Position numbers and translations under genes: made by a program. A stretch of 9,818 nucleotides of DNA from Candidatus Vampirococcus lugosii (lineage in GTDB: Bacteria > Patescibacteriota > Gracilibacteria > Absconditabacterales > Absconditicoccaceae): the NCBI RefSeq assembly GCF_018420025.1, contig NZ_JAEDAM010000037.1:1-9818 (forward strand), written 5' to 3'. Under the pieces are notes generated by a model. It was given only the letters and a program-made list of their open reading frames with translations, ran no database searches and was not told the DNA's origin. Positions 1 through 9,818 of this stretch are shown here, piece by piece (within the stretch, counting starts at the first letter, position 1; every line of letters starts with the position of its first letter).

Positions 1-3000
1 ATATCAAGATTAATTGAAGGTTCTACTATTGTAATAAGTTGATCAGATTGTCAAGTTAAAATTGTATCTCATAATTCATAATTTACTTCAACAGAATTTA
101 ATTTTGTATCTCACAATTTATTATTTTGAGAATCAAGAACGACAACATCATACTTAATAATTATATATTCTATATTAGTTCCAGTATTTGAATTTACTAT
201 ATCTTGAAATTCAAAATTTATATTTTCATTAATAATATTTTTAAATCATCAAGTATAAACTACTCAAGTTGATGCTTGTATTTCCAAACTATCTTGTAAT
301 ATAGATAATCCTGTTGGTAAAGTATCATTTATTTCAAGATTTTGAGTTGTTCATTTCAATAATGGAATTTGTATTTTATATTTTCATTTTTCTCATATTC
401 AAAGTTCTCAATTTCAAGGATTTTCAAGAGTTTTTATTATTCAATTATCTGTTCTTATATTTATTGTATCATAATCACTTGTAGTGTATTCTCTTCTATA
501 ATTATTATCAACTCAAGGATATGAATAATAGTCTATATTTACTGCTCAACTAAGTAATTCTCAATAAGTTACTGTATTTTCCAATATAGTATTATAAGTG
601 TATTCAATACTGTCTCATACTTCCAAAACTGTTGAACCTGAATTAAATTCATAATCTCAAGAAATAGTTGTTTTATTTGGAAGATTGTCTTCCCATTCCA
701 AATCATAAGCTGGTGCAGATCAATTATTTGTTATATTAATTGTTGTTTGTATTTCATCTCATCATTGTCAATAATTTTTACTAAATTCTTTACTTATAGT
801 AATATTAGGTTCTACTATATCAAATTTAGTTTTTTCTGTATTAGAACAATCAGGTTCACTATGTATTTTTTCATTATCATCTCAATTATAACTTAATTTA
901 ATTGTAGAATTTTTATTTCATCATGCTTGATTATTTGTATCATCAAGAACTATTGCTTTAGTTTCCAAAACAAAACCTGTTCAAGATCATGTTCATACAT
1001 TAATTATATCTCCAAAATCAAACTCTATAATATTTCAAGATAATGTTATATTATTTGATGTGTTTGATACTACTAAATTATTCAATATTTTTCATGTCAA
1101 AAATTCTATTCAATTAGGCAATTCTTGTTTAAGTTTTACTCATGTCAAATTTAGTTTTGGAATATCAACATTTATTTTATATGTAATTTCTTCTCATATA
1201 GCCAAATCTGAACAATTTATATTAAAATTATCTTTATTAGTTCCTGTAAGAGATGTTGATTCAATAAAATGATTTATTTCAAGATCATCAATATCTAAAT
1301 TAATAAAAGTGTCTCATGTATATTGTCTTTCTTCTCAATTATTATTTTTCAATGTTGAATATTCAAGATTTACTTTATTTTTTTCTTGTGTTCAAGCTAT
1401 AACTCATGATAGTACTTCTACTTCAAAATTTATAGTTTGTGTATTGTTAATAAGTAATTCATCAAGTGTTAATCAACTTGAGAATAAATCTTCAGCAGTC
1501 CCATTAAAATCTAAATTTCATGTTAATGTTCATGATAAATATTTAAGATTAGTAGGTAAAATATCTTTAACATTTAAATTATAAGCTGGAGAATTTGATG
1601 ATGAATTATGTTCAATATTAATTGTATATTTAACAGTATCTCATACTTGTGCATTTGAAGGATTTACCGTTTTACTTATATCAAGATTAGGTTCTACTAT
1701 ATCAAAATTTACTTGATTTGCAGTTTTACTATTATCTCAATCATAATTTATATTAATATTAGAATTTTTAGTATTTCATTCTTTATTATTTTCGTTATTA
1801 AGAACTCTTGCTGTAGTTTGTAAAACAAAACCAGTTCAAGATCAGGTTCATACATTAATTATATCTCCAAAATCAAACTCTATAATATTTCAAGATAATG
1901 TTATATTATTTGATGTGTTTGATACTACTGAATTATTCAATATTTTTCATGTCAAAAATTCTATTCAATTTGATAATTCTTGTTCAAGTGTTAATCATGT
2001 CAAATTTAATTTTGGAATTTCAATATTAATATTGTATATAACTTCTTCTCATATAGTTAAATTATCTCAATTTGTTCATGTAAGAGATGTTGATTCAATA
2101 AAATGATTTATTTCAAGATTATCAATATTTAAATCAATATTATCTGATTTATTATATTTTTTTTCATTTCAATTATTATTTTCTAATGTTGAATATTCAA
2201 GATTTACTTTATTTTTTTCTTGTGTTCAAGCTATAACTCATGATAGTACTTCTACTTCAAAATTTATAGTTTGTGTATTGTTAATAAGTAATTCATCAAG
2301 TGTTAATCAACTTGAGAATAAATCTTCAGCAGTCCCATTAAAATCTAAATTTCATGTTAATGTTCATGATAAATATTTAAGATTAGTAGGTAAAATATCT
2401 TTAACATTTAAATTATAAGCTGGAGAATTTGATGATGAATTATGTTCAATATTAATTTCATAAGATACTTCATCTCATACTTGTGCATTTGAAGGATTTA
2501 CTGTTTTACTTATATCAAGATTAGGTTCCAAAATATTAACAGGAGTATTTTTACTTATAGATTTAGATGAATAATTAAATTCTCATTCTGCTTTTCTATT
2601 TGTTCATTTTGAAATAGTATTTTTAACTATAGCATTAGTTTGTATTACAATACTTTGTGGATTTGTACTTGAATTAACTATATCTCAAAAATCTATTGTA
2701 GTTCATGTAAATATTGTTCAAGTTGTAATTGAAGATCAAGAAAAAGTTAAATCAGATCATAAGGAAACAATAGAACCACTAATAAATTCCAAATTACTAT
2801 GAAGATTTTCTTCAAATGAAGTTCATATATATGTTCATCATGATAAAGTAATTGTTGTCTCAAAACTTATTTTTTCTCATATAAGTAAATCGTTACCAGT
2901 ACTTCGTGTTTCTGAACTTCAAGAAATAATTCTTGATATTCATGGTCTTGCAAGTTCAAAATCAATATCAGTAGAAATAGGTCAGAAATTATTTACTTCT

Positions 3001-5615
3001 TTGGAATCAGCATCTTCACTTGAATAATAATCCATAGATATACTATTTTTTCTATTATTTCAATCTATAACAAAACCAGTAGTAGGAGCTAGTGTATAAT
3101 CAATAATAACAGATTTACCTTTTTTAATATTTGATCTTGAATTTATTTTATTAAAAGAAATTTCAAGATTTGTTCAAGATTGATTAAAATTTGCACCTGT
3201 TACTGTAAATCCTGATCAAACTATACTACCAGTATAAAAATTCATATTTTCTGGAATAATATCAATTAGATTTTCAACATAAGCATCATTTCTTCATTTT
3301 GAATTATCAATTATCACTTCAAAATCAACATTATTTCAATATGAAACATTTGTTCAAGTTGAATTTTTTGATACTTCTAAAGCAGGAAGTCATATAGTAA
3401 AAGGAACTTCCATTTTATTCATATTAAAAAGTTTTCATTCAGAATTTCTAAAACTTGCTATAGCTACATTTTTTTGTGGAAGTTCTCATTCATTATTGTA
3501 AGAAGAAGGTTTTTTATCCAAAATATCAACATCAAAAGTAATAGCAAAAGTATTACCTCACATTCAACTTCATAAATTAAATTCAATATTATTTGCATCC
3601 GTTGTTTCTATCCAATGATTATCTGATGCAGTATCTCAACTTAAAACAAGACCATTAAATTCATTATTAATTCAATTCCAATCATTTGTAAGTAGATCAT
3701 TTCAAAATATATCTTTAAGATTTTCATCAGTTTGAAAATTTATATTAGATATATTATCATTTGGTCACATTAATAATGGAATAGCATCTTTTATATTTAT
3801 TCATGTAAAATATACATTTGGAAATTCTACTTCTATAGCAAATTTAAGAGTAGATCATACGGGTAAAGCAGTTCAAGTATTATAATTACTATTATTATCA
3901 CTATTATAAATTGTTCAATCAGGTAATTCTACTGAAATTAATCTTTTTTTATTTGTAGGAACTGGAGCAGTTACACTTGCACTAGAATTGTATTCAAGAC
4001 TTGTTCATACAAGATAAGTATATCAATATCACCACCATCCAGAATAAACATATGAAATATATCAATAAAATTTGGCTTGATTAGTTAAAGTTTTTGTATT
4101 TTCATAAGTTCAATCTTCAATATCTCAATCCAAAATTGCTCTATATTCTATTGTTACAGTATCACCAGAATAAATATGTCAAGTTCATAAAGAAAAAATT
4201 AATTCAGTTTCTCAAGTATTAAGTAATTTTGATCAAGAAAAAGTAAAATTATTTCATGATCAAGAATTTGTACTTGAAAAATTTCATGTATATGATATTC
4301 AATCTGGTAAAGTATCAACAATATAAGTACCAGAACCTAAAGCTCCAAAATCAATATTTTTACCAAGATTTAATGTAAGTGTATAATTCAATTCATCTCA
4401 TATAACTGGATTTGATTTATCAACAATTTTACTAAAACTAGCATAAACTAAAGAATAAGTAGTTGATTTTTTGATAGAAGATGTTATTTGATTTGAAGTA
4501 TTTCATTTGTTCCATGTTCATTCTGCAAGCATTGTTGTATCACTTGACCAAGAATCTCAATTATTTATTTGAGCTGATTCATTTAATTCTATACTTCAAT
4601 CTAGATTGTATGAATCAATTTGAGATGATAATCACCTAGTTTTGTATTTAATTTCAAGAGTTTGTCCAGTTCATACATTAATTCATGATAAATCAAGTTG
4701 TACATATCAAGAATCATCACCAGTAAGATAATTTATGTTTATATTTGATACTCATCATGTTTGAGTAAATCATAAAAACTCTCTATTATTAGAAACAATT
4801 TCTTGAATATGTAAATCATTTAATGATCATTGAGAATTTCATTCAATTTTTATTGAAGTTTCATATTCATTTCAAACTATAAATTTTGTAGCTCAAGCTT
4901 TTGATATTTTATAAGGTACAAAACTAGTTGTAGCAGATTCAAAATAAAATCATTCTATATAATTAATACCAGATTCATAAAATTGATAATATGGACCAAA
5001 ATAAAAAGTATATCAATTTGCAGATTCAAAAAGATTTGCGGGGAAATTTATATCATTTGCATTATATTCAATAATTGATCATGTACCAGCAAAATTTATT
5101 GAACCTGGCATTGCTGACGAAGGTGCTCAATCTGGAACTGCTCATCTTCAATATATACTATTTTCAGCATATGCAAGAACCTTTATTTCTGTATCATCAA
5201 AAAGATCTATATTATTATTAGATTTTAAATTTAAAGTATAATTTTCAGAAGTTGTCTGTACTAATACATCATCAGTTTTGAAAAATAAATATTGTCATCA
5301 TGTATATGAAATTATTTCATAAGGATCTCATAAATCACTACTAGAAATAAATTCAATATTATCTGGAATATTTACTATAAATCAAGGATTAAATGCCTCT
5401 CATTCAGAACTTTTTTTATTTTTAAGATTTATTTTTAGTTGAAAATTTTCTCATAAAATATTTGATTCACTAAGTGAAGGATTTACTTCAAGATCTAATT
5501 TTGCTGATCAATCAATATTAGAACCAGAACCATTAGCAAAAATATTATTAAAAATAAAAGTTCATATAAATAATATGGAAATAATTAATAATTTTATTAT
5601 TTTGTTCAAACTCAT
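1..5615 (-). CDS. Giant secreted surface protein / putative adhesin built from repeated DUF11-type (TIGR01451-like conserved repeat domain) beta-sandwich modules. The N-terminus is complete and the C-terminus runs off the left edge (>=1871 codons, table 25).
   Basis: I checked every codon of the minus-strand frame by hand (plus-strand codon starts divisible by 3). There is no TAA or TAG from 5615 down to 3, while TGA occurs very often. In sequence this AT-rich, that is not expected by chance. The ATG at 5613-5615 has an in-frame TAA at 5619-5621, one codon upstream, so it is the first possible start. The N-terminus is MSLNKIIKLLIISILFIGTFIFNNIFA/NGSGS. The recurrent module EPNLDISKTVNPSNAQVGDEVSYEINIEHNSSSNSPAYNLNVKDILPTNLKYLSGT (2361-2528, twin at 1527-1694) fits the DUF11 pattern (GD-x-V-x-Y-x-I ... 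A-x-N-x-x-V-x-D-x-LP-x-x-L-x-Y). At least six such modules are recognisable, e.g. KIVDKSNPVIGDELNYTLTLNL...VDTLPDGISY and ITISKEFSKNYGQGGDEIQTTINITNNGSAPAYDLEWEDNLP. Confidence 0.85.
808..2523 (-). repeat. Intragenic tandem duplication of a two-domain module inside the adhesin gene: unit A 808-1689 (882 bp, 294 codons) and unit B 1690-2523 (834 bp, 278 codons).
   Basis: Direct comparison shows that 1351-1623 and 2185-2457 are identical over 273 bp. Segments 1639-1689 and 2473-2523 differ at 1 position. About 170 bp around 975-1140 differs from 1830-1995 by only a handful of mismatches. The remaining stretches are clearly diverged and carry in-frame indels: the offsets between matching landmarks are 882, 855 and 834 bp, all multiples of 3. 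The similar plus-strand track ORFs at 1060..1272 and 1915..2106 are antisense echoes of this repeat. Confidence 0.9.
5535..5615 (-). other. Predicted Sec-type signal peptide of the giant surface protein (about 27 aa).
   Basis: The translation is MSLNKIIKLLIISILFIGTFIFNNIFA|NGSGSN. It has Lys residues in the n-region, an uninterrupted hydrophobic core, and small residues (F-A) before a polar Asn/Gly/Ser stretch. The cleavage position is my estimate only. Confidence 0.6.
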
Positions 5616-5626
5616 TTTTTATTTTT

Positions 5627-5653
5627 ATATATGTAAAATATATTTACATATAT
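5627..5653. promoter_or_regulatory. AT-rich palindrome (11-bp arms, 5-nt spacer) 12 nt upstream of the adhesin start codon. Possible operator or weak RNA hairpin; function unknown.
   Basis: The sequence atatatgtaaa-atata-tttacatatat has arms that are perfect reverse complements. It lies in the 68-nt gap (5616-5683) between the small ORF stop and the adhesin ATG. A weak sigma70-like pair on the minus strand overlaps it: TTGACT at 5672-5677 and TATAAT at 5652-5657. The spacer between them is only 14 nt. Confidence 0.3.
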
Positions 5654-5683
5654 TATATATAAAAATAAAAAAGTCAAAATATT

Positions 5684-6079
5684 TTATATATTATAATTAT
5701 TTGTATTATTTGTAGTTCATGCTTCATCTGGTCTTATTTTTTTAGTTATAGCAGTTAATACTTCTGTTCTGAAATGAAAATCTCATATTCTATTTATATT
5801 AGAATCTAAAACATTTCTTCATTCAATTTTTAATTTAATTGTATTATTAAATAATCTACACATTTGTTCTTTTTCTATATCTAATCTAGTAATTATTTGA
5901 TTTCTATTTTCGGTATCTTGTGGAATTAAATCTTTTTTTTCATCAAAAATATTATTTATTATATCTTTTCATTTATCCAAAAAATCTGATAAAGTAATTT
6001 TTTCATTGTTTTCTTCATTTGATAATAATTTTTCAAATCTATTATCTAGCTTAAAATTTCATTCATCTTTATTTCACAT
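5684..6079 (-). CDS. Hypothetical small hydrophilic, charged protein (131 aa, table 25) with no recognisable family.
   Basis: The ORF runs from ATG 6077-6079 to TAA 5684-5686, with 5 or more in-frame TGAs and no TAA/TAG. An open run of 131 codons (168 if the upstream open frame to 6187 is counted) is very unlikely by chance at this AT content. The translation is MGNKDEGNFKLDNRFEKLLSNEENNEKITLSDFLDKGKDIINNIFDEKKDLIPQDTENRNQIITRLDIEKEQMCRLFNNTIKLKIEGRNVLDSNINRIGDFHFRTEVLTAITKKIRPDEAGTTNNTNNYNI. It starts 13 nt after the TAG of the upstream gene. The start is uncertain because upstream in-frame TTG codons exist at 6145, 6172 and 6181. Confidence 0.6.
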
Positions 6080-6092
6080 AATTTCTTGTAAA

Positions 6093-8804
6093 CTAAAACC
6101 TCCAAAAATTGATCCTAATAAATAGGAAGTTTTTTTTGGGATCAATTCAAGCTTGTGATTTCAAATTTGCAACTTTATCAAGTTTATTTACTCTTCTTCA
6201 TCATTCAATAGCAGAGAATAAAAAAGATTTAACAACATCTCTAACACCAATATCTTCATTATCTAATCATTTAATATTTGCTGATAAAGCGGATATAGCC
6301 GTTATATCAATTCCTAATAAAGCAAGTTTTCAAGCTATATCTTTATTATTTAAAATATTTCTAAAATCCATATTTTTTGTAAAACCTAAATAACCAAGAG
6401 CAGCAGCTGAAACATAAAAATCATTTCATCGATTTCATTCTTGATTTCATAATTTACCGTCTCTGATAAGTCATTCAGTTTCAACAGAGAAAAAATTGAA
6501 AGGCACTGATTTTGCAATTCAAACTCATCATTTTATTGTATTTTGTGCACCTTCCCAATTATTAATAACTTTAGAAGCACCTTTAATGAATCAATCCCCT
6601 TTTTGATACCATGTAGTTGATTTATATGCTCTAAGTCATCTTATAGTTGCACTTGTAGCGGCCCTTGCTCACATAGTGAGAAGTTTAGTTGCTATCATTG
6701 ATAATCAAACTCAAGCTACACTAGAAAGTCATATAATTGCTATTTCAAATGCAAGTTCTCACAAAATTTCTTTAGTATCATTAGATAAGTTAAACCATCA
6801 AATTCATTCTATATCACCATACATTTTCAAAAAAGGATTATTACCATCATAAGATCAAGACCAATTTGTATTTGTTTTAACAATTGCTTCTGTTATAGAT
6901 TGATTTACAGCACCTTGTAATAACATTACTTCTAATTCTTTTTTTGCATCATTTTCTGCATCAGCAATAAGTTTTTTAATTTTTTCTTTTTCTTCTTCAT
7001 CTTCTACATCATCTAATTTTTCTTCTAAATTATTTATATAATTATCAATTATTCCATCTGATTGACTAACTACCTTTTCTATCCTTTTAAAAAATTGAGA
7101 AATTTTTCTATTAAGTTCCATCCCTTGACTAAGTTCTCAATGTTCATTATTAAATAATCAAGAATTTATAAATTTTTCAATAATCGGATCATGTTCTAGA
7201 TTAGAACTTTCTATACGACCTCCACGAGATGTAGATTTATATAATTTAGAAATAATATTGTCTATTCATTCTTCTTGTATATATGAAATTAATTCATTAA
7301 TATCTCAATGATTAATTTGATTTTCAAAATCATATCAATAATCTTCATTTTCACCATATTCGGTTAATATATCAGGATTATTAATTACATATTCTTGAAC
7401 TAATTCTCATGCTTTTTTATGATCACCAAATTCCGTTTCTATTATTTGAAAAAGTTCTAAATGTCTATCATGTGAGCTTTTACCATCTTTATTATTTAGT
7501 AATTCATCAATTTTATTTCTTAATCATTCATTTTTATCTATCATTTTTGGTAAACTTCATACTCTATGTAGATGTTTATCTTCTACTATTATATCATCAA
7601 TTATAGTGCTTTTAATATTTTCTAATTTACTTGTTAATTCTTTTTGTACTTTTTGTAAATTATCTTCAATTCATCATTCTTCATAATCTCATATTATATT
7701 TATCAACATACCTTTCATAGGAACAGGAGAAGATAAGTATAAATCAATATAAGATATTTTTTCATAAATATCTCAAGATTCATTGTCTAAATCATTAAGT
7801 GCATCCAAATCTAATTCTATATTTTCTACTCTTCCAAAAACATTTTTTTTCTCATAATCTCATTGAAAAACATATAATAATTCTTTGGCAATATCAAAAT
7901 CTTCCAAACATTCTTCTTTTACTTTTTCCAAGAATTCTTTTGATTTCTCAAAATCTTTACTTTCAAAAAAATTTTTTGATTCCATAAAATCTGATATTTT
8001 TTCTTCAATTCAATTTAATCATTTAAGATGTGGATATTTATCAAAAAAATCTTCTATATTAGAACCAAAACTATTCATACTTTCAAAAATATCATCAAAG
8101 TCAGTTTCAATTATATCTCAATTATATAATATATTAAACTTTCACTCTTCATAATTAGAACTTAATAAAATTGGTGTATTTTCCATTTTTTCAATATATT
8201 CTCTAATTTCAGAATATGTATCTGGAGATATATTATTATATTCTGCTATTTCATCCCAAGTAATTCATTTACTTAATAATTCCATTAAATTAAAATAAGA
8301 TTCATCACCATTTTCATCTTTATAATTAATCATAAGATTATCGTTATCAGAAACTTGAAAAACTTTACTATCTTTTATATTAATAGTTAATGATTGTCAT
8401 ATATTTATTTTATCAACATCTTCTATTTCGTTTTTATCAATTAAATATTCAATTTTTAATCAATAATCTTTTGCAATTTGAGATAATATATCTCAATGCA
8501 TAACATCATGTTCTATTGTTTGTTGAACTCTTTCATCAATATTATTTAATAAATTAGTGACCAAATCATTTGATTTATATTCCATATCATTATTTGCAAT
8601 AATTTTTATCAAAAAATCAACTAATCAATATTGAATAGCTTCTTTTTGAGAATCACTGAGTTCATCTGTATCATAAATTTCTTCCATAAAAGAAGATGAT
8701 TTTAATACTATACTTTCAACAATATTTTCTTTTTCTTCAGAGGAAATATCACTATTTTCCAATCTAGTATCAACTGCTTTTTGTGTAAATTGTTCTATAC
8801 TCAT
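6093..8804 (-). CDS. 903-aa LysM domain-containing orphan protein (table 25): acidic helical N-terminal two-thirds and a hydrophobic Gly/Ala-rich C-terminal third, with no signal peptide.
   Basis: The ORF runs from ATG 8802-8804 (MSIEQFTQKAVDTRLENSD...) to TAG 6093-6095 (...KKNFLFIRINFWRF*). I translated every codon by hand and found only TGA interruptions. The track ORFs 8625..8921(-) and 6855..7121(-) are in the same frame and are fragments of this gene, each cut at a TGA. The LysM match is at residues ~100-143. I prefer the 8804 start over the track start at 8921. The 39-codon extension reads like translated AT-rich promoter DNA (YPKKIIANKYFLYIIYSKHYIFKYKLI) and contains a good TTGCAA-16-TATAAT promoter candidate. 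Confidence 0.8.
6096..6770 (-). other. C-terminal hydrophobic / Gly-Ala-rich region of the 903-aa protein, probably membrane-associated. The strongest transmembrane-helix candidate is at 6690-6743.
   Basis: The translation begins ...EILGELAFEIAIIGLSSVAGVGLSMIATKLLTMGARAATSATIRGLRAY..., with an 18-residue uncharged core IAIIGLSSVAGVGLSMIA at residues ~688-705. Shorter amphipathic or hydrophobic stretches follow: FYVSAAALGYLGF, IAGKLALLGIDITAISALSANI and VVKSFLFSAIEGG. The composition changes abruptly from the preceding Asp/Glu/Lys-rich region. This is assessed by eye only; I ran no TM predictor. Confidence 0.5.
8376..8507 (-). other. LysM (peptidoglycan/chitin-binding) domain within the 903-aa protein.
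   Basis: DVMHGDILSQIAKDYGLKIEYLIDKNEIEDVDKINIGQSLTINI aligns with the LysM consensus Y-x-V-x-x-GDTL-x-x-IA-x-x-YG-x-x-x-x-x-L-x-x-x-N-...-L-x-x-GQ-x-L-x-I. All three signature glycines (GD, YG, GQ) are encoded by TGA, at 8493-8495, 8460-8462 and 8397-8399. Confidence 0.75.
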
Positions 8805-8841
8805 AATTAATTTATATTTAAATATATAATGTTTTGAATAA

Positions 8842-8869
8842 ATTATATATAAAAAATATTTATTTGCAA
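8842..8869 (-). promoter_or_regulatory. Candidate sigma70-type promoter for the LysM-protein gene or operon.
   Basis: On the minus strand, TTGCAA (8864-8869) is followed by a 16-nt spacer and then TATAAT (8842-8847). This sits ~38 nt upstream of the ATG at 8804. The background is so AT-rich that -10-like hexamers are common, hence the low confidence. Confidence 0.35.
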
Positions 8870-9064
8870 TAATTTTTTTGGGGTAGTGTGCTGTAAATGT
8901 TAAAATGTCAGTATAACTCATCTTTGTAGAACAAAATTTCTAAAAACTTGATTTAGACAAGGATTTGCGAGAAAATAAAAAATTTTTTATATATTATATA
9001 ATTTTATATTATTTAAAACAATAATTTACTATTTAATTCTTTATTTTTAGATTAATTTTCAATA

Positions 9065-9097
9065 CAAGTTATTTTTTAAAAATAAAAAAATAACTTG
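9065..9097. promoter_or_regulatory. Perfect 13-bp inverted repeat with a 7-nt spacer in the divergent intergenic region. Candidate operator or RNA stem-loop.
   Basis: caagttatttttt (9065-9077), aaaaata, aaaaaataacttg (9085-9097). The arms are exact reverse complements. The right arm overlaps a TTGAAA -35-like hexamer at 9095-9100. Confidence 0.4.
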
Positions 9098-9122
9098 AAA
9101 AAGATAAAAAAAATAATATAAG
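9095..9122 (+). promoter_or_regulatory. Weak candidate promoter for the pilin gene.
   Basis: TTGAAA (9095-9100), a 16-nt spacer, then TATAAG (9117-9122), ~60 nt upstream of the ATG at 9183. Each hexamer matches consensus at 5 of 6 positions. AT-rich context makes chance matches likely. Confidence 0.25.
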
Positions 9123-9136
9123 TATTGAAAATATTA

Positions 9137-9164
9137 TTAATATTTAATATTTAATATTTAATAG
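9137..9164. repeat. Tandem heptamer (TTAATAT)x3 plus a degenerate fourth copy (TTAATAG), immediately upstream of the pilin gene.
   Basis: Read directly: ttaatat (9137-9143), ttaatat (9144-9150), ttaatat (9151-9157), ttaatag (9158-9164). The repeat ends 18 nt before the pilin ATG. Confidence 0.7.
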
Positions 9165-9182
9165 CTAAAAACTAATGAAAAA

Positions 9183-9818
9183 ATGGGAAATAATAAATGA
9201 TTTACATTAGTAGAGTTGATAGTAACAATAGCTATAATATCAATATTGGCGGTAGTAGCAGGATTAACACTTACACATTTTGTGGGGAAATCAAGAGATA
9301 CACAAGTAGTAAGTAATATAAATACAGTTGCCAAATGATTAGATATGTATTATATAAGTAATTGAGAATATCCTGAGCCAGATAATTTTACATGAGTATG
9401 AATAAAACAATGAGAGTGGTGAAGTGGTAAATCATCAGAAATAGAAATAATACCTCATCCTAAAAATAGTGATAAATCTAGTTTTGTATATACTATAACA
9501 GATAATCAAAAAAGTTATACTATAGCTGGATGGTTGGAAAATGAGTTAGTTATGAATGGTTTGTATACAGATAAATTGTATGCAAGAAATAATTATACAG
9601 ATATGATACTTTACAAAAAATGACAAATTCCAGTAATTGTAAAAGAAGATAATTGGGTTCCAGTTACTAATACAAATAGTGATTGATCTTCGTTTGTTGT
9701 ATTATGAGATAATAGTGAGATTGTAAAAAAACAAGATGGAACAAGTTTATCAGGTGATACTTTGGATGAAGTATTTAGTTGAGTAAATGAATATGTAGAA
9801 CAACAATGATCTACTTGA
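9183..9818 (+). CDS. Type IV pilin-like protein (prepilin-type N-terminal cleavage/methylation domain). The 5' end is complete and the ORF runs off the right edge (>=212 codons, table 25).
   Basis: The translation begins MGNNKG|FTLVELIVTIAIISILAVVAGLTLTHFVGKSRDTQVVSNINTVAKGLDMYYISNGEYPEP.... It has a short basic leader, Gly at -1, Phe at +1, Glu at +5 and a ~22-residue hydrophobic helix. It then has the pilin-typical (A/L)xxYYxxNGxYP motif. The G(-1) (9198-9200) and the NG of NGEYP (9363-9365) are TGA codons. I count 13 in-frame TGA against 8 GGN codons and no TAA/TAG. The last codon in the window (9816-9818) is TGA, so the ORF continues. Confidence 0.85.

What the first reader, a model, noticed from the sequence alone, without database searches (positions are those of the whole stretch)
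1..9818. TGA is a sense codon here, decoded as glycine (table 25), so standard-code annotation is blind to every gene
**Seen in sequence.**
- Two minus-strand frames stay free of TAA/TAG for 1871 and 903 codons and are interrupted only by TGA. The same holds for the 131-codon ORF and the 212-codon pilin ORF.
- TGAs sit on positions that are invariant Gly in well-known families:
  - prepilin peptidase site G(-1) in KG|FTLVE (9198-9200);
  - pilin NGEYP (9363-9365);
  - all three LysM glycines GD/YG/GQ (8493-8495, 8460-8462, 8397-8399);
  - the GD of DUF11 repeats (VGDEVSY at 2475-2477, VGDTVKY at 1641-1643).
- Reading TGA as Trp (table 4) would give implausible strings such as FTWVWIKQWEWWSGK and would destroy these motifs.
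- TGG is still used separately for Trp (e.g. 9531-9533). TGA is the majority Gly codon in the pilin (13 of 21).

**Established knowledge.** TGA=Gly is the code of Gracilibacteria (BD1-5) and Absconditabacteria (SR1).

**Inference.** The window derives from such a lineage or from one of its phages or plasmids.
Basis: partly seen in the sequence, partly recalled or inferred. Interest (0 to 1): 0.8.

Follow-up and report, generated by a model that had tools for sequence, protein, structure and literature searches.

The report
Known UGA-to-glycine code in Vampirococcus contig

Summary
The genes stay open for 1871, 903, 131 and 212 codons when only TAA/TAG stop translation; shuffled sequence gives at most 158.

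TGA means glycine, not tryptophan:
- Pfam scores fall in the order Gly > masked > Trp for N_methyl and LysM. For DUF11, Gly is clearly best.
- With TGA masked as X, five homologues (one confirmed standard-code) carry Gly at 100 of 328 TGA columns and Trp at none.
- In two recoded relatives, window TGA aligns with GGN 86 times and with TGG never.

The window is identical to a 9818-nt GenBank contig of Candidatus Vampirococcus lugosii (Absconditabacteria). Its 2021 genome paper states the UGA-to-Gly recoding and used Prodigal table 25. All four translations are already in GenBank/RefSeq with Gly at TGA. Verdict: already known, low interest.

By-product: the "131-codon ORF" is not a separate gene. 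It is the C-terminus of the LysM gene, split off by one extra A in an A8 tract (6130-6137). An independent assembly has A7 and one intact ORF, and a 1087-aa homologue aligns end to end.

Not testable here: tRNA-Gly(UCA), loss of RF2, and the predicted CGA/CGG-to-Trp change.

The parts
1..5615 (-). 5' part (1871 codons, ATG at 5613-5615, runs off the window start) of a giant DUF11-repeat surface protein gene with an N-terminal signal-peptide-like segment. It contains 138 in-frame TGA. It is GenBank 'DUF11 domain-containing protein, partial', and it matches VAMP_95_65 (contig 95, 1871 aa) in Supplementary Table 1 of the genome paper.
   Evidence: ORF. (Pfam DUF11, 104.6 bits with Gly). (TIGR01451, 140 bits, 5 stretches). 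(P0001, 1871 aa, from a contig of 9818 nt; matches the X-masked query at all non-masked positions and carries G at the TGA positions). (VAMP_95_65, 1871 aa).
840..2528 (-). Internal tandem duplication inside the DUF11 gene. Two units of about 278-285 codons (834-855 nt spacing) are 88-98% identical at DNA level. They carry one TGA (2076-2078) versus GGA (1242-1244) interchange.
   Evidence: families D1-D4. (codon-level alignment of the two units: 17 TGA/TGA, 1 TGA/GGA).
5684..6079 (-). The '131-codon ORF' (TAA stop at 5684-5686). It is really the C-terminal segment of the LysM gene, displaced into another frame by the extra A at 6130-6137. It contains 6 TGA.
   Evidence: annotated separately as WP_213349201.1 and MBS8122071.1. 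(aligns to residues 960-1084 of the 1087-aa homologue P0016, E 4e-16)..
6130..6137 (-). Poly(A)8 tract on the coding strand (T8 on +), where the LysM gene changes frame. An independent assembly of run SRR13241709 has A7 here, which gives one uninterrupted ORF. Both frames are free of TAA/TAG across 6093-6187.
   Evidence: L005 is 99.985% identical to window 8944-2428, and this indel is the only difference. (tract coordinates). (overlapping open frames).
6093..8804 (-). LysM-domain protein ORF as it stands in the window: 903 codons plus a TAG stop at 6093-6095, with 44 TGA. The GenBank model starts further upstream at 8921 (942 aa). The homologue's alignment favours the 8804 start.
   Evidence: LysM, 36.0 bits. 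(WP_213349203.1 at 903 aa; MBS8122068.1 at 942 aa). (P0016 aligns from residue 23 of the 903-aa form).
8382..8498 (-). LysM domain (residues 103-141 of the 903-aa form). Its three conserved glycine positions are all encoded by TGA (8493-8495, 8460-8462, 8397-8399).
   Evidence: (masked query aligns to Ecp6 and CEBiP LysM domains, with G at the first and third positions). (G in 120, 80 and 119 of 122 LysM alignments).
8805..9182 (.). AT-rich divergent intergenic region between the LysM/DUF11 gene string (-) and the pilin gene (+). It includes a perfect (TTAATAT)x3.9 array at 9137-9163. No function was tested.
   Evidence: sequence. (tandem repeats). (promoter-like sites are no more frequent than in shuffles). 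(no Rfam match).
9183..9818 (+). 5' part (212 codons, runs off the window end) of a type IV pilin / T2SS pseudopilin-like gene. The leader is MGNNK, followed by G|FTLVE, with G(-1) encoded by TGA at 9198-9200. It contains 13 TGA.
   Evidence: N_methyl, 35.4 bits. (TIGR02532, 33.5 bits). (masked query aligns X6 to G of 'KKGFTLIEL' in 9egp_A). (MBS8122069.1 / WP_213349205.1, 'type II secretion system protein, partial').

Best explanation
The window is the complete 9818-nt contig 95 of the draft genome of Candidatus Vampirococcus lugosii. This is an epibiotic predatory bacterium of the Absconditabacteria (SR1) branch of the CPR. Like its relatives it uses genetic code 25: UGA is a glycine codon, UGG remains tryptophan, and only UAA and UAG stop translation.

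In this 23% G+C genome the AT-richer TGA has become the main glycine codon, at about 76% of Gly codons in the window. That is consistent with AT mutation pressure (inference).

The genes are cell-surface genes:
- a LysM-domain protein of about 1039 aa;
- a giant DUF11-repeat adhesin-like protein;
- a divergently transcribed type IV pilin.

What is shown here: the codon meaning, the identity of the contig and the gene models. What is inferred from published work on the clade and not visible in the window: decoding by a tRNA-Gly with anticodon UCA, and loss of release factor 2.
For: **ORF structure**
- ORFs of 1871, 903, 131 and 212 codons are closed only by TAA/TAG, against a maximum of 158 in 200 shuffles.

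**HMM scores**
- Gly / Trp / X at TGA give 35.4 / 19.6 / 26.6 bits for N_methyl, 104.6 / 73.5 / 63.6 for DUF11 and 36.0 / none / 20.1 for LysM.

**Code-agnostic test, with TGA masked as X throughout**
- Five homologues (P0004-P0008; P0004 confirmed standard-code, 64% G+C, ends in TGA) have Gly at 100 of 328 window-TGA columns. Background Gly is 8.6% (binomial P = 8e-30). Trp occurs at 0 of 328.
- Summed BLOSUM62 scores rank Gly first and Trp last of the 20 amino acids.

**Codon-level test against two relatives that also use in-frame TGA**
- Window TGA pairs with GGN 41 and 45 times, with TGA 28 and 24 times, and with TGG 0 times.
- TGG pairs with TGG. Fisher P is 1e-28 and 1e-32.

**Other direct evidence**
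- The two copies of the internal duplication differ by TGA versus GGA at one position.
- Masked queries against solved structures put G opposite the prepilin G(-1) and opposite the first and third LysM TGA. G occupies 120, 80 and 119 of 122 LysM alignments at the three LysM TGA positions.

**Identity**
- All four table-25 translations are exact GenBank/RefSeq proteins of Ca. V. lugosii, each from a contig of 9818 nt.

**Literature**
- The genome paper states that UGA is reassigned to Gly and that genes were called with Prodigal table 25 (PMC8080830).
- It lists VAMP_95_65 (1871 aa) among the ten longest proteins.
- Proteomic proof of UGA = Gly exists for the sister group BD1-5 (PMC4032931).
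Against: - Nothing found contradicts it.
- The window holds no tRNA gene and no release-factor gene, so the decoding machinery was not seen.
- Only two natural stop codons are present (TAG at 6093, TAA at 5684). An occasional terminating role of TGA therefore cannot be excluded from this window.
- About 40% of window TGA columns align with non-Gly residues in the relatives at 31-34% identity. That is expected at this divergence.
- Codetta predicts that Absconditabacteria also read CGA/CGG as Trp (PMC8629427). Table 25 may therefore not be the complete code. The window has only 2 CGA and 0 CGG, and neither CGA aligns to Trp.
Confidence: 0.97

Rival explanations
1. TGA is read as tryptophan (table 4), as in Mollicutes and several insect endosymbionts, which have similarly low G+C.
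For: Low G+C (23%) is typical of table-4 organisms. Automatic gene callers at JGI and Logan translated the relatives and this same locus with TGA = W.
Against: - Trp substitution lowers or abolishes all three Pfam matches.
- Trp is found at 0 of 328 TGA columns in the five distant homologues, and window TGA never aligns with TGG.
- Trp ranks last of the 20 amino acids.
- Trp content would be 6.8% and Gly content 2%.
- TGG is used separately and pairs with TGG.
Confidence: 0.005
2. The standard code applies. The TGAs are real stops, and the region is decayed pseudogenes or non-coding AT-rich DNA.
For: Under table 11 no ORF exceeds 98 aa.
Against: - TAA/TAG-free runs of 1871 and 948 codons at 23% G+C have probabilities of about 1e-67 and 1e-34.
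- The read-through products have significant domain matches and full-length homologues.
- TGA sits at conserved Gly columns.
Confidence: 0.002
3. The code-25 contig belongs to a phage or plasmid of an Absconditabacteria or Gracilibacteria host, not to the chromosome.
For: - The contig is short (9.8 kb) and both ends are cut.
- Exact-match and protein searches of the GTDB species representatives found nothing.
- The PHROGs hits cover only the LysM and pilin domains.
Against: - There is no phage hallmark or replication gene and no match in the viral contig collection.
- The content is a giant adhesin, a LysM surface protein and a pilin. This matches the cell-surface repertoire that the genome paper describes for the bacterium itself, and the paper lists this 1871-aa protein.
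- The authors binned the contig with the genome.
- In a relative, the homologous giant gene sits among housekeeping-type genes on a 74-kb contig: RNase J, a glycosyltransferase and two-component regulators.
Confidence: 0.03
4. TGA has a dual, context-dependent meaning: Gly inside genes and stop at some gene ends.
For: Only two gene ends can be seen in the window, so the sample is too small to exclude it.
Against: Both visible gene ends use TAG or TAA. The relatives' giant genes end in TAA. RF2 is lacking in UGA=Gly genomes per the Codetta study's description of the clade. Nothing in the window suggests termination at TGA.
Confidence: 0.02

Closest known systems
Genetic code 25 (Candidate Division SR1 / Gracilibacteria code: UGA = Gly)
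   Same: In-frame TGA falls at conserved glycine positions. TGG is kept for Trp. Only TAA and TAG serve as stops. The genome has low G+C. The organism belongs to Absconditabacteria. The genome paper states this code for this very genome.
   Different: Nothing differs in kind. TGA takes an unusually large share of glycine codons here, about 76%. The two relatives at 33% G+C use it for 38% and 45%.
Genetic code 4 (UGA = Trp; Mycoplasmatales, Entomoplasmatales and some insect endosymbionts)
   Same: The same stop codon is reassigned, also in AT-rich reduced genomes. ORFs look equally open under either table, which is why automatic pipelines chose table 4 for the relatives.
   Different: The amino acid differs. 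Trp is excluded at the TGA columns.
Published Ca. Vampirococcus lugosii genome (Moreira et al., Nat Commun 2021, PMC8080830; PRJNA678638), contig 95
   Same: The products are identical: P0001, WP_213349203.1/MBS8122068.1, WP_213349201.1/MBS8122071.1 and MBS8122069.1. Each comes from a contig of 9818 nt.
   Different: The deposited gene models split the LysM gene into two ORFs (903/942 aa plus 131/153 aa). The A7 version in the Logan assembly of SRR13241709 and the 1087-aa homologue P0016 both indicate one gene.

Membership tests
Genetic code 25 (UGA = Gly) | Long ORFs interrupted by TGA but closed by TAA/TAG | tested here: met
   1871, 903, 131 and 212 codons with 201 in-frame TGA. The maximum in shuffles is 158 codons.
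Genetic code 25 (UGA = Gly) | In-frame TGA falls on columns where homologues and family profiles have glycine | tested here: met
   - Pfam scores with G / W / X substitution.
- Masked alignments: G at 100 of 328 columns against 8.6% background, P = 8e-30.
- Window TGA pairs with GGN 86 times in two relatives.
- LysM columns have G in 120, 80 and 119 of 122 alignments.
- G ranks first of 20 amino acids.
Genetic code 25 (UGA = Gly) | UGG still encodes Trp and is not interchangeable with UGA | tested here: met
   There are 16 in-frame TGG. TGG pairs with TGG in the relatives (2 and 3 times) and never with TGA.
Genetic code 25 (UGA = Gly) | A tRNA-Gly with anticodon UCA in the genome | not testable with these tools
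   No tRNA gene lies in the window. The rest of the genome could not be reached. The feature is described for the clade in PMC8629427.
Genetic code 25 (UGA = Gly) | No release factor 2 (prfB) in the genome | not testable with these tools
   This is a genome-level feature and the window holds four ORFs only. The genome paper and its held supplements do not mention release factors.
Genetic code 25 (UGA = Gly) | Organism belongs to Absconditabacteria or Gracilibacteria | tested here: met
   The products are exact GenBank/RefSeq proteins of Ca. Vampirococcus lugosii. The NCBI lineage is Candidatus Absconditibacteriota.
Genetic code 4 (UGA = Trp) | In-frame TGA falls on Trp or aromatic columns of homologues | tested here: not met
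   Trp occurs at 0 of 328 columns. Window TGA never aligns with TGG. Trp ranks last. Trp substitution removes the LysM match altogether.
Extended Absconditabacteria code (CGA/CGG = Trp, predicted by Codetta) | CGA/CGG fall on Trp columns of homologues | tested here: inconclusive
   The window has only 2 CGA (2904-2906, 6429-6431) and no CGG. The aligned residues in homologues are D, A, V, N and the like, not W. There is no statistical power.
Type IV pilin / T2SS pseudopilin (prepilin N-terminal methylation domain) | Short leader, G(-1), then F/M and a hydrophobic helix with E5 (GFxxxE) | tested here: met
   The sequence is MGNNK-G|FTLVE. N_methyl scores 35.4 bits against a cut-off of 21.2. TIGR02532 scores 33.5 against 16.3. 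It aligns to solved pilins.
DUF11 (PF01345 / TIGR01451) repeat surface proteins | Repeated DUF11 domains above the curated threshold | tested here: met
   PF01345 scores 104.6 bits over 4 stretches. TIGR01451 scores 140.4 bits over 5 stretches.
LysM domain proteins (PF01476) | LysM domain above the gathering score | tested here: met
   The score is 36.0 bits against a cut-off of 20.9, at residues 103-141. The rest of the protein has one full-length homologue only.

The most novel reading that the evidence does not exclude
The extra A in the A8 tract at 6130-6137 could be real rather than an assembly or amplification error. The full-length LysM surface protein of about 1039 aa would then be made only after loss of one A. 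That could happen in the mRNA by transcriptional slippage, as described for poly(A) tracts in AT-rich endosymbionts (my own knowledge, not checked here). It could also happen in the DNA by slipped-strand mispairing. Either route would make this cell-surface gene of a CPR predator a phase-variable or slippage-dependent gene. A7 and A8 versions both exist in assemblies of this organism's data, and this is one of four coding-strand A8 runs in the window.
Probability: 0.12. Interest if true: 0.35.

Novelty: already known. Interest (0 to 1): 0.1.

Why it matters
The recoding itself adds nothing new. UGA = Gly has been known for SR1 and Gracilibacteria since 2013. It is stated for this genome in its 2021 paper, and the public records are translated with table 25.

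The practical lessons are modest.
- Large automatic protein collections (JGI, Logan) carry table-4, Trp-rich mistranslations of the relatives and of this very locus. This weakens homology searches against such lineages.
- The deposited annotation splits one LysM surface-protein gene in two at a homopolymer.
- Table 25 may not be the whole code of this clade, because CGA/CGG-to-Trp has been predicted. That needs the whole genome to test.

Tried and rejected
**Searches for the source or for relatives that found nothing**
- An exact 50-mer from the window found nothing in the GTDB species genomes or in IMG/VR.
- A protein-guided scan of the GTDB genomes with the DUF11 protein found no relative.
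- Looking up table-11 fragments of the genes in the contig index found nothing.
- The word-indexed protein search with the masked, fused LysM protein found only the protein itself. The exhaustive HMMER search was needed to find the one full-length homologue, and its DNA is not on record.

**Scans of the window and loci**
- ARAGORN found no tRNA in the window and no tRNA(UCA) in the relatives' loci.
- Rfam found nothing.
- The promoter and terminator scan gave no more sites than in shuffles.
- PHROGs gave only LysM and pilin domain-level hits.

**Literature**
- Campbell et al. 2013 (PMC3619370) is not held.
- The genome paper and its held supplements say nothing about release factors or a tRNA-Gly(UCA).

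**Readings rejected**
- Table 4, pseudogenes and a phage or plasmid origin (see the rival explanations).
- The CGA = Trp check had no power, with only 2 codons available.
Full report
**1. The observation**

- TGA at 9198-9200, 9363-9365, 8493-8495, 8460-8462, 8397-8399, 2475-2477 and 1641-1643;
- TGG at 9531-9533.

With only TAA and TAG as stops the window contains four ORFs:
- 1-5618 (-): 1871 codons from the ATG at 5615, open at the window start.
- 6093-8939 (-): 903 codons from the ATG at 8804.
- 131 codons from the ATG at 6079 (-).
- 9183-9818 (+): 212 codons, open at the window end.

In 200 shuffles the longest TAA/TAG-free run averaged 102 codons, with a maximum of 158. From composition alone, 1871 stop-free codons has a probability of about 1e-67.

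The ORFs hold 201 in-frame TGA against 63 GGN and 16 TGG. Glycine would be about 2% of residues without TGA and 8.4% with it. Trp would be 6.8% if TGA were Trp. Under table 11 the longest TGA-free stretch in any gene is 93 codons, and no listed ORF exceeds 98 aa.

**2. What TGA means**

*Family profiles.* Substituting Gly, Trp or X at every TGA gave these scores:

| Pfam family | Gly | Trp | X |
|---|---|---|---|
| N_methyl | 35.4 bits | 19.6 bits | 26.6 bits |
| DUF11 | 104.6 bits | 73.5 bits | 63.6 bits |
| LysM | 36.0 bits | no match | 20.1 bits |

*A test that does not presuppose Gly.* I searched with the big ORF with every TGA written as X. I then aligned the hits to the masked query.
- Five distant homologues (P0004-P0008) were pooled. 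P0004 is confirmed standard-code: it is 64% G+C and ends in TGA.
- They have Gly at 100 of 328 TGA columns, against a background of 8.6% (P = 8e-30). They have Trp at none.
- Summed BLOSUM62 scores rank Gly first and Trp last of the 20 amino acids.

*Codon-level comparison.* Two closer relatives, P0002 and P0003, are 31-34% identical, come from contigs of 33% G+C, and also carry in-frame TGA. I compared them codon by codon.
- Window TGA pairs with GGN 41 and 45 times, with TGA 28 and 24 times, and with TGG never.
- TGG pairs with TGG.
- Fisher P is 1e-28 and 1e-32.

*Other direct evidence.*
- The two copies of the 834-nt internal duplication in the DUF11 gene differ by TGA (2076-2078) versus GGA (1242-1244).
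- Masked queries against solved structures put the prepilin X opposite G in 'KKGFTLIEL' (9egp_A).
- They also put the first and third LysM X opposite G in Ecp6 and CEBiP.
- Across 122 LysM alignments the three TGA columns hold G 120, 80 and 119 times. Those proteins were found with a Gly-translated query, so that last count is slightly biased.
- One reader detail is weaker than claimed. The NGEYP position is Q, N or D in the best solved pilins.

**3. Where the window comes from**

The masked search returned P0001, NCBI 'DUF11 domain-containing protein, partial [Candidatus Vampirococcus lugosii]'. It is 1871 aa, from a contig of exactly 9818 nt, and it carries G at the TGA positions.

The table-25 translations of the other three ORFs are also exact database entries from that contig:
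- WP_213349203.1 / MBS8122068.1, the LysM protein;
- WP_213349201.1 / MBS8122071.1, a hypothetical protein;
- MBS8122069.1 / WP_213349205.1, 'type II secretion system protein, partial'.

NCBI places the species in Candidatus Absconditibacteriota.

The genome paper (Moreira et al. 2021, PMC8080830) covers the point fully:
- It says genes were called with Prodigal table 25.
- It discusses giant surface proteins and type IV pili.
- Its Supplementary Table 1 lists VAMP_95_65, 1871 aa.

Proteomic proof of UGA = Gly exists for the sister group BD1-5 (PMC4032931).

**4. What the genes are**

On the minus strand:
- A LysM-domain protein, with the LysM domain at residues 103-141. The C-terminal part is hydrophobic and Gly-rich. 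Only one full-length homologue turned up among 1.84 billion representatives.
- Then a giant DUF11-repeat protein with a signal-peptide-like N-terminus. It is cut by the contig end.

On the plus strand, divergently transcribed:
- A type IV pilin with the leader MGNNK and the motif G|FTLVE. It is cut by the other contig end.

No phage hallmark genes, no tRNA and no Rfam match were found. In a relative, the homologous giant gene lies among ordinary cellular genes on a 74-kb contig. A chromosomal origin is therefore much more likely than a phage or plasmid.

**5. By-product: the '131-codon ORF' is not a gene of its own**

- A Logan assembly of run SRR13241709 (L005, 6516 nt) is identical to window 8944-2428 except for one base. 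The window has A8 on the coding strand at 6130-6137, and L005 has A7.
- With A7, the LysM ORF and the 131-codon ORF form one ORF. It is 1039 aa from the ATG at 8804 and ends at the TAA at 5684.
- The single full-length homologue P0016 (1087 aa) aligns with this fused protein end to end (residues 23-1037 against 20-1084, E 4e-95).
- The 131-aa product alone aligns with P0016 residues 960-1084 (E 4e-16).
- In the window both frames are open across 6093-6187.

The ancestral and probably functional state is one gene. Whether the A8 in the GenBank contig is an amplification or assembly error or a real variant cannot be decided without the reads. To restore the frame on A8, one A must be lost or the ribosome must shift +1. 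A classical -1 shift would not work.

**6. Open points**

- The decoding machinery, meaning tRNA-Gly(UCA) and absence of RF2, is a genome-level feature. It could not be examined: the window has no tRNA, and the rest of the genome could not be reached.
- Codetta predicts that Absconditabacteria additionally read CGA/CGG as Trp (PMC8629427). The window has only two CGA and no CGG. Neither CGA aligns with Trp in homologues, so nothing can be concluded.
- Promoter scans were uninformative.

**7. Verdict**

- Observation: confirmed.
- Interpretation: supported.
- Novelty: already known.
- Interest: low.

The only items beyond the published record are the split LysM gene at a poly(A) tract and the table-4 mistranslations of this locus and its relatives in automatic protein collections.

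Noticed in passing
window 6130-6137 (with 5684-8804, minus strand): The LysM ORF and the 131-codon ORF are one gene, split by one extra A in an A8 tract. An independent Logan assembly of SRR13241709 has A7 and an intact ORF (1039 aa from the ATG at 8804). The only full-length homologue (P0016, 1087 aa) aligns across the junction and through the '131-aa' part. Whether this is an assembly error or real slippage is unresolved.
   Followed up: yes
L001 10001-19309, L003 388-8730, L005 24-3260: JGI and Logan gene calls for the relatives, and for this same locus, were translated with table 4. P0002 and P0003 carry 113 and 114 Trp from TGA against 12 and 11 from TGG. L005's product does not match a table-11 translation, though its Trp content was not checked directly. 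Large protein collections therefore hold Trp-rich mistranslations of code-25 organisms.
   Followed up: partly
window 840-2528 (minus strand), and the end of L005 at window 2428: The DUF11 gene contains a tandem duplication of about 834-855 nt, with segments 88-98% identical. The independent Logan contig breaks inside it. Copy number in the real genome may therefore differ from the assembled two.
   Followed up: partly
window 2904-2906 and 6429-6431: These are the only two in-frame CGA codons, and there is no CGG. Codetta predicts CGA/CGG = Trp for Absconditabacteria (PMC8629427). GenBank translates them as Arg. Aligned residues in homologues are neither R nor W.
   Followed up: partly
window 8804 versus 8921 (minus strand): GenBank (942 aa) and RefSeq (903 aa) disagree on the LysM gene start. 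The homologue's alignment begins at residue 23 of the 903-aa form (subject residue 20), which favours the ATG at 8804. The extra 39 residues look like translated AT-rich spacer.
   Followed up: partly
window 9137-9163 and 8981-9014: A perfect (TTAATAT)x3.9 array and a looser 10-nt AT repeat lie in the 378-nt divergent intergenic region between the LysM and pilin genes. No function was tested.
   Followed up: no
codon usage of all four ORFs: TGA supplies about 76% of glycine codons here (201 of 264). The relatives at 33% G+C use it for 38% and 45%. C- and G-ending codons are almost absent, for example GGC 0, TGC 0, CAC 0 and CTG 0.
   Followed up: partly
cluster 1: The 90%-identity cluster of the LysM protein also lists a 57-aa member named 'ribosomal protein L39E' (P0011). 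This looks like a clustering or naming oddity in the protein collection.
   Followed up: no
L001 10001-19309 (P0002): The closest relative of the DUF11 giant protein is 3102 aa and has a sortase domain hit (PF04203) recorded on the same product. The window's copy is cut before any such C-terminal part could be seen.
   Followed up: no
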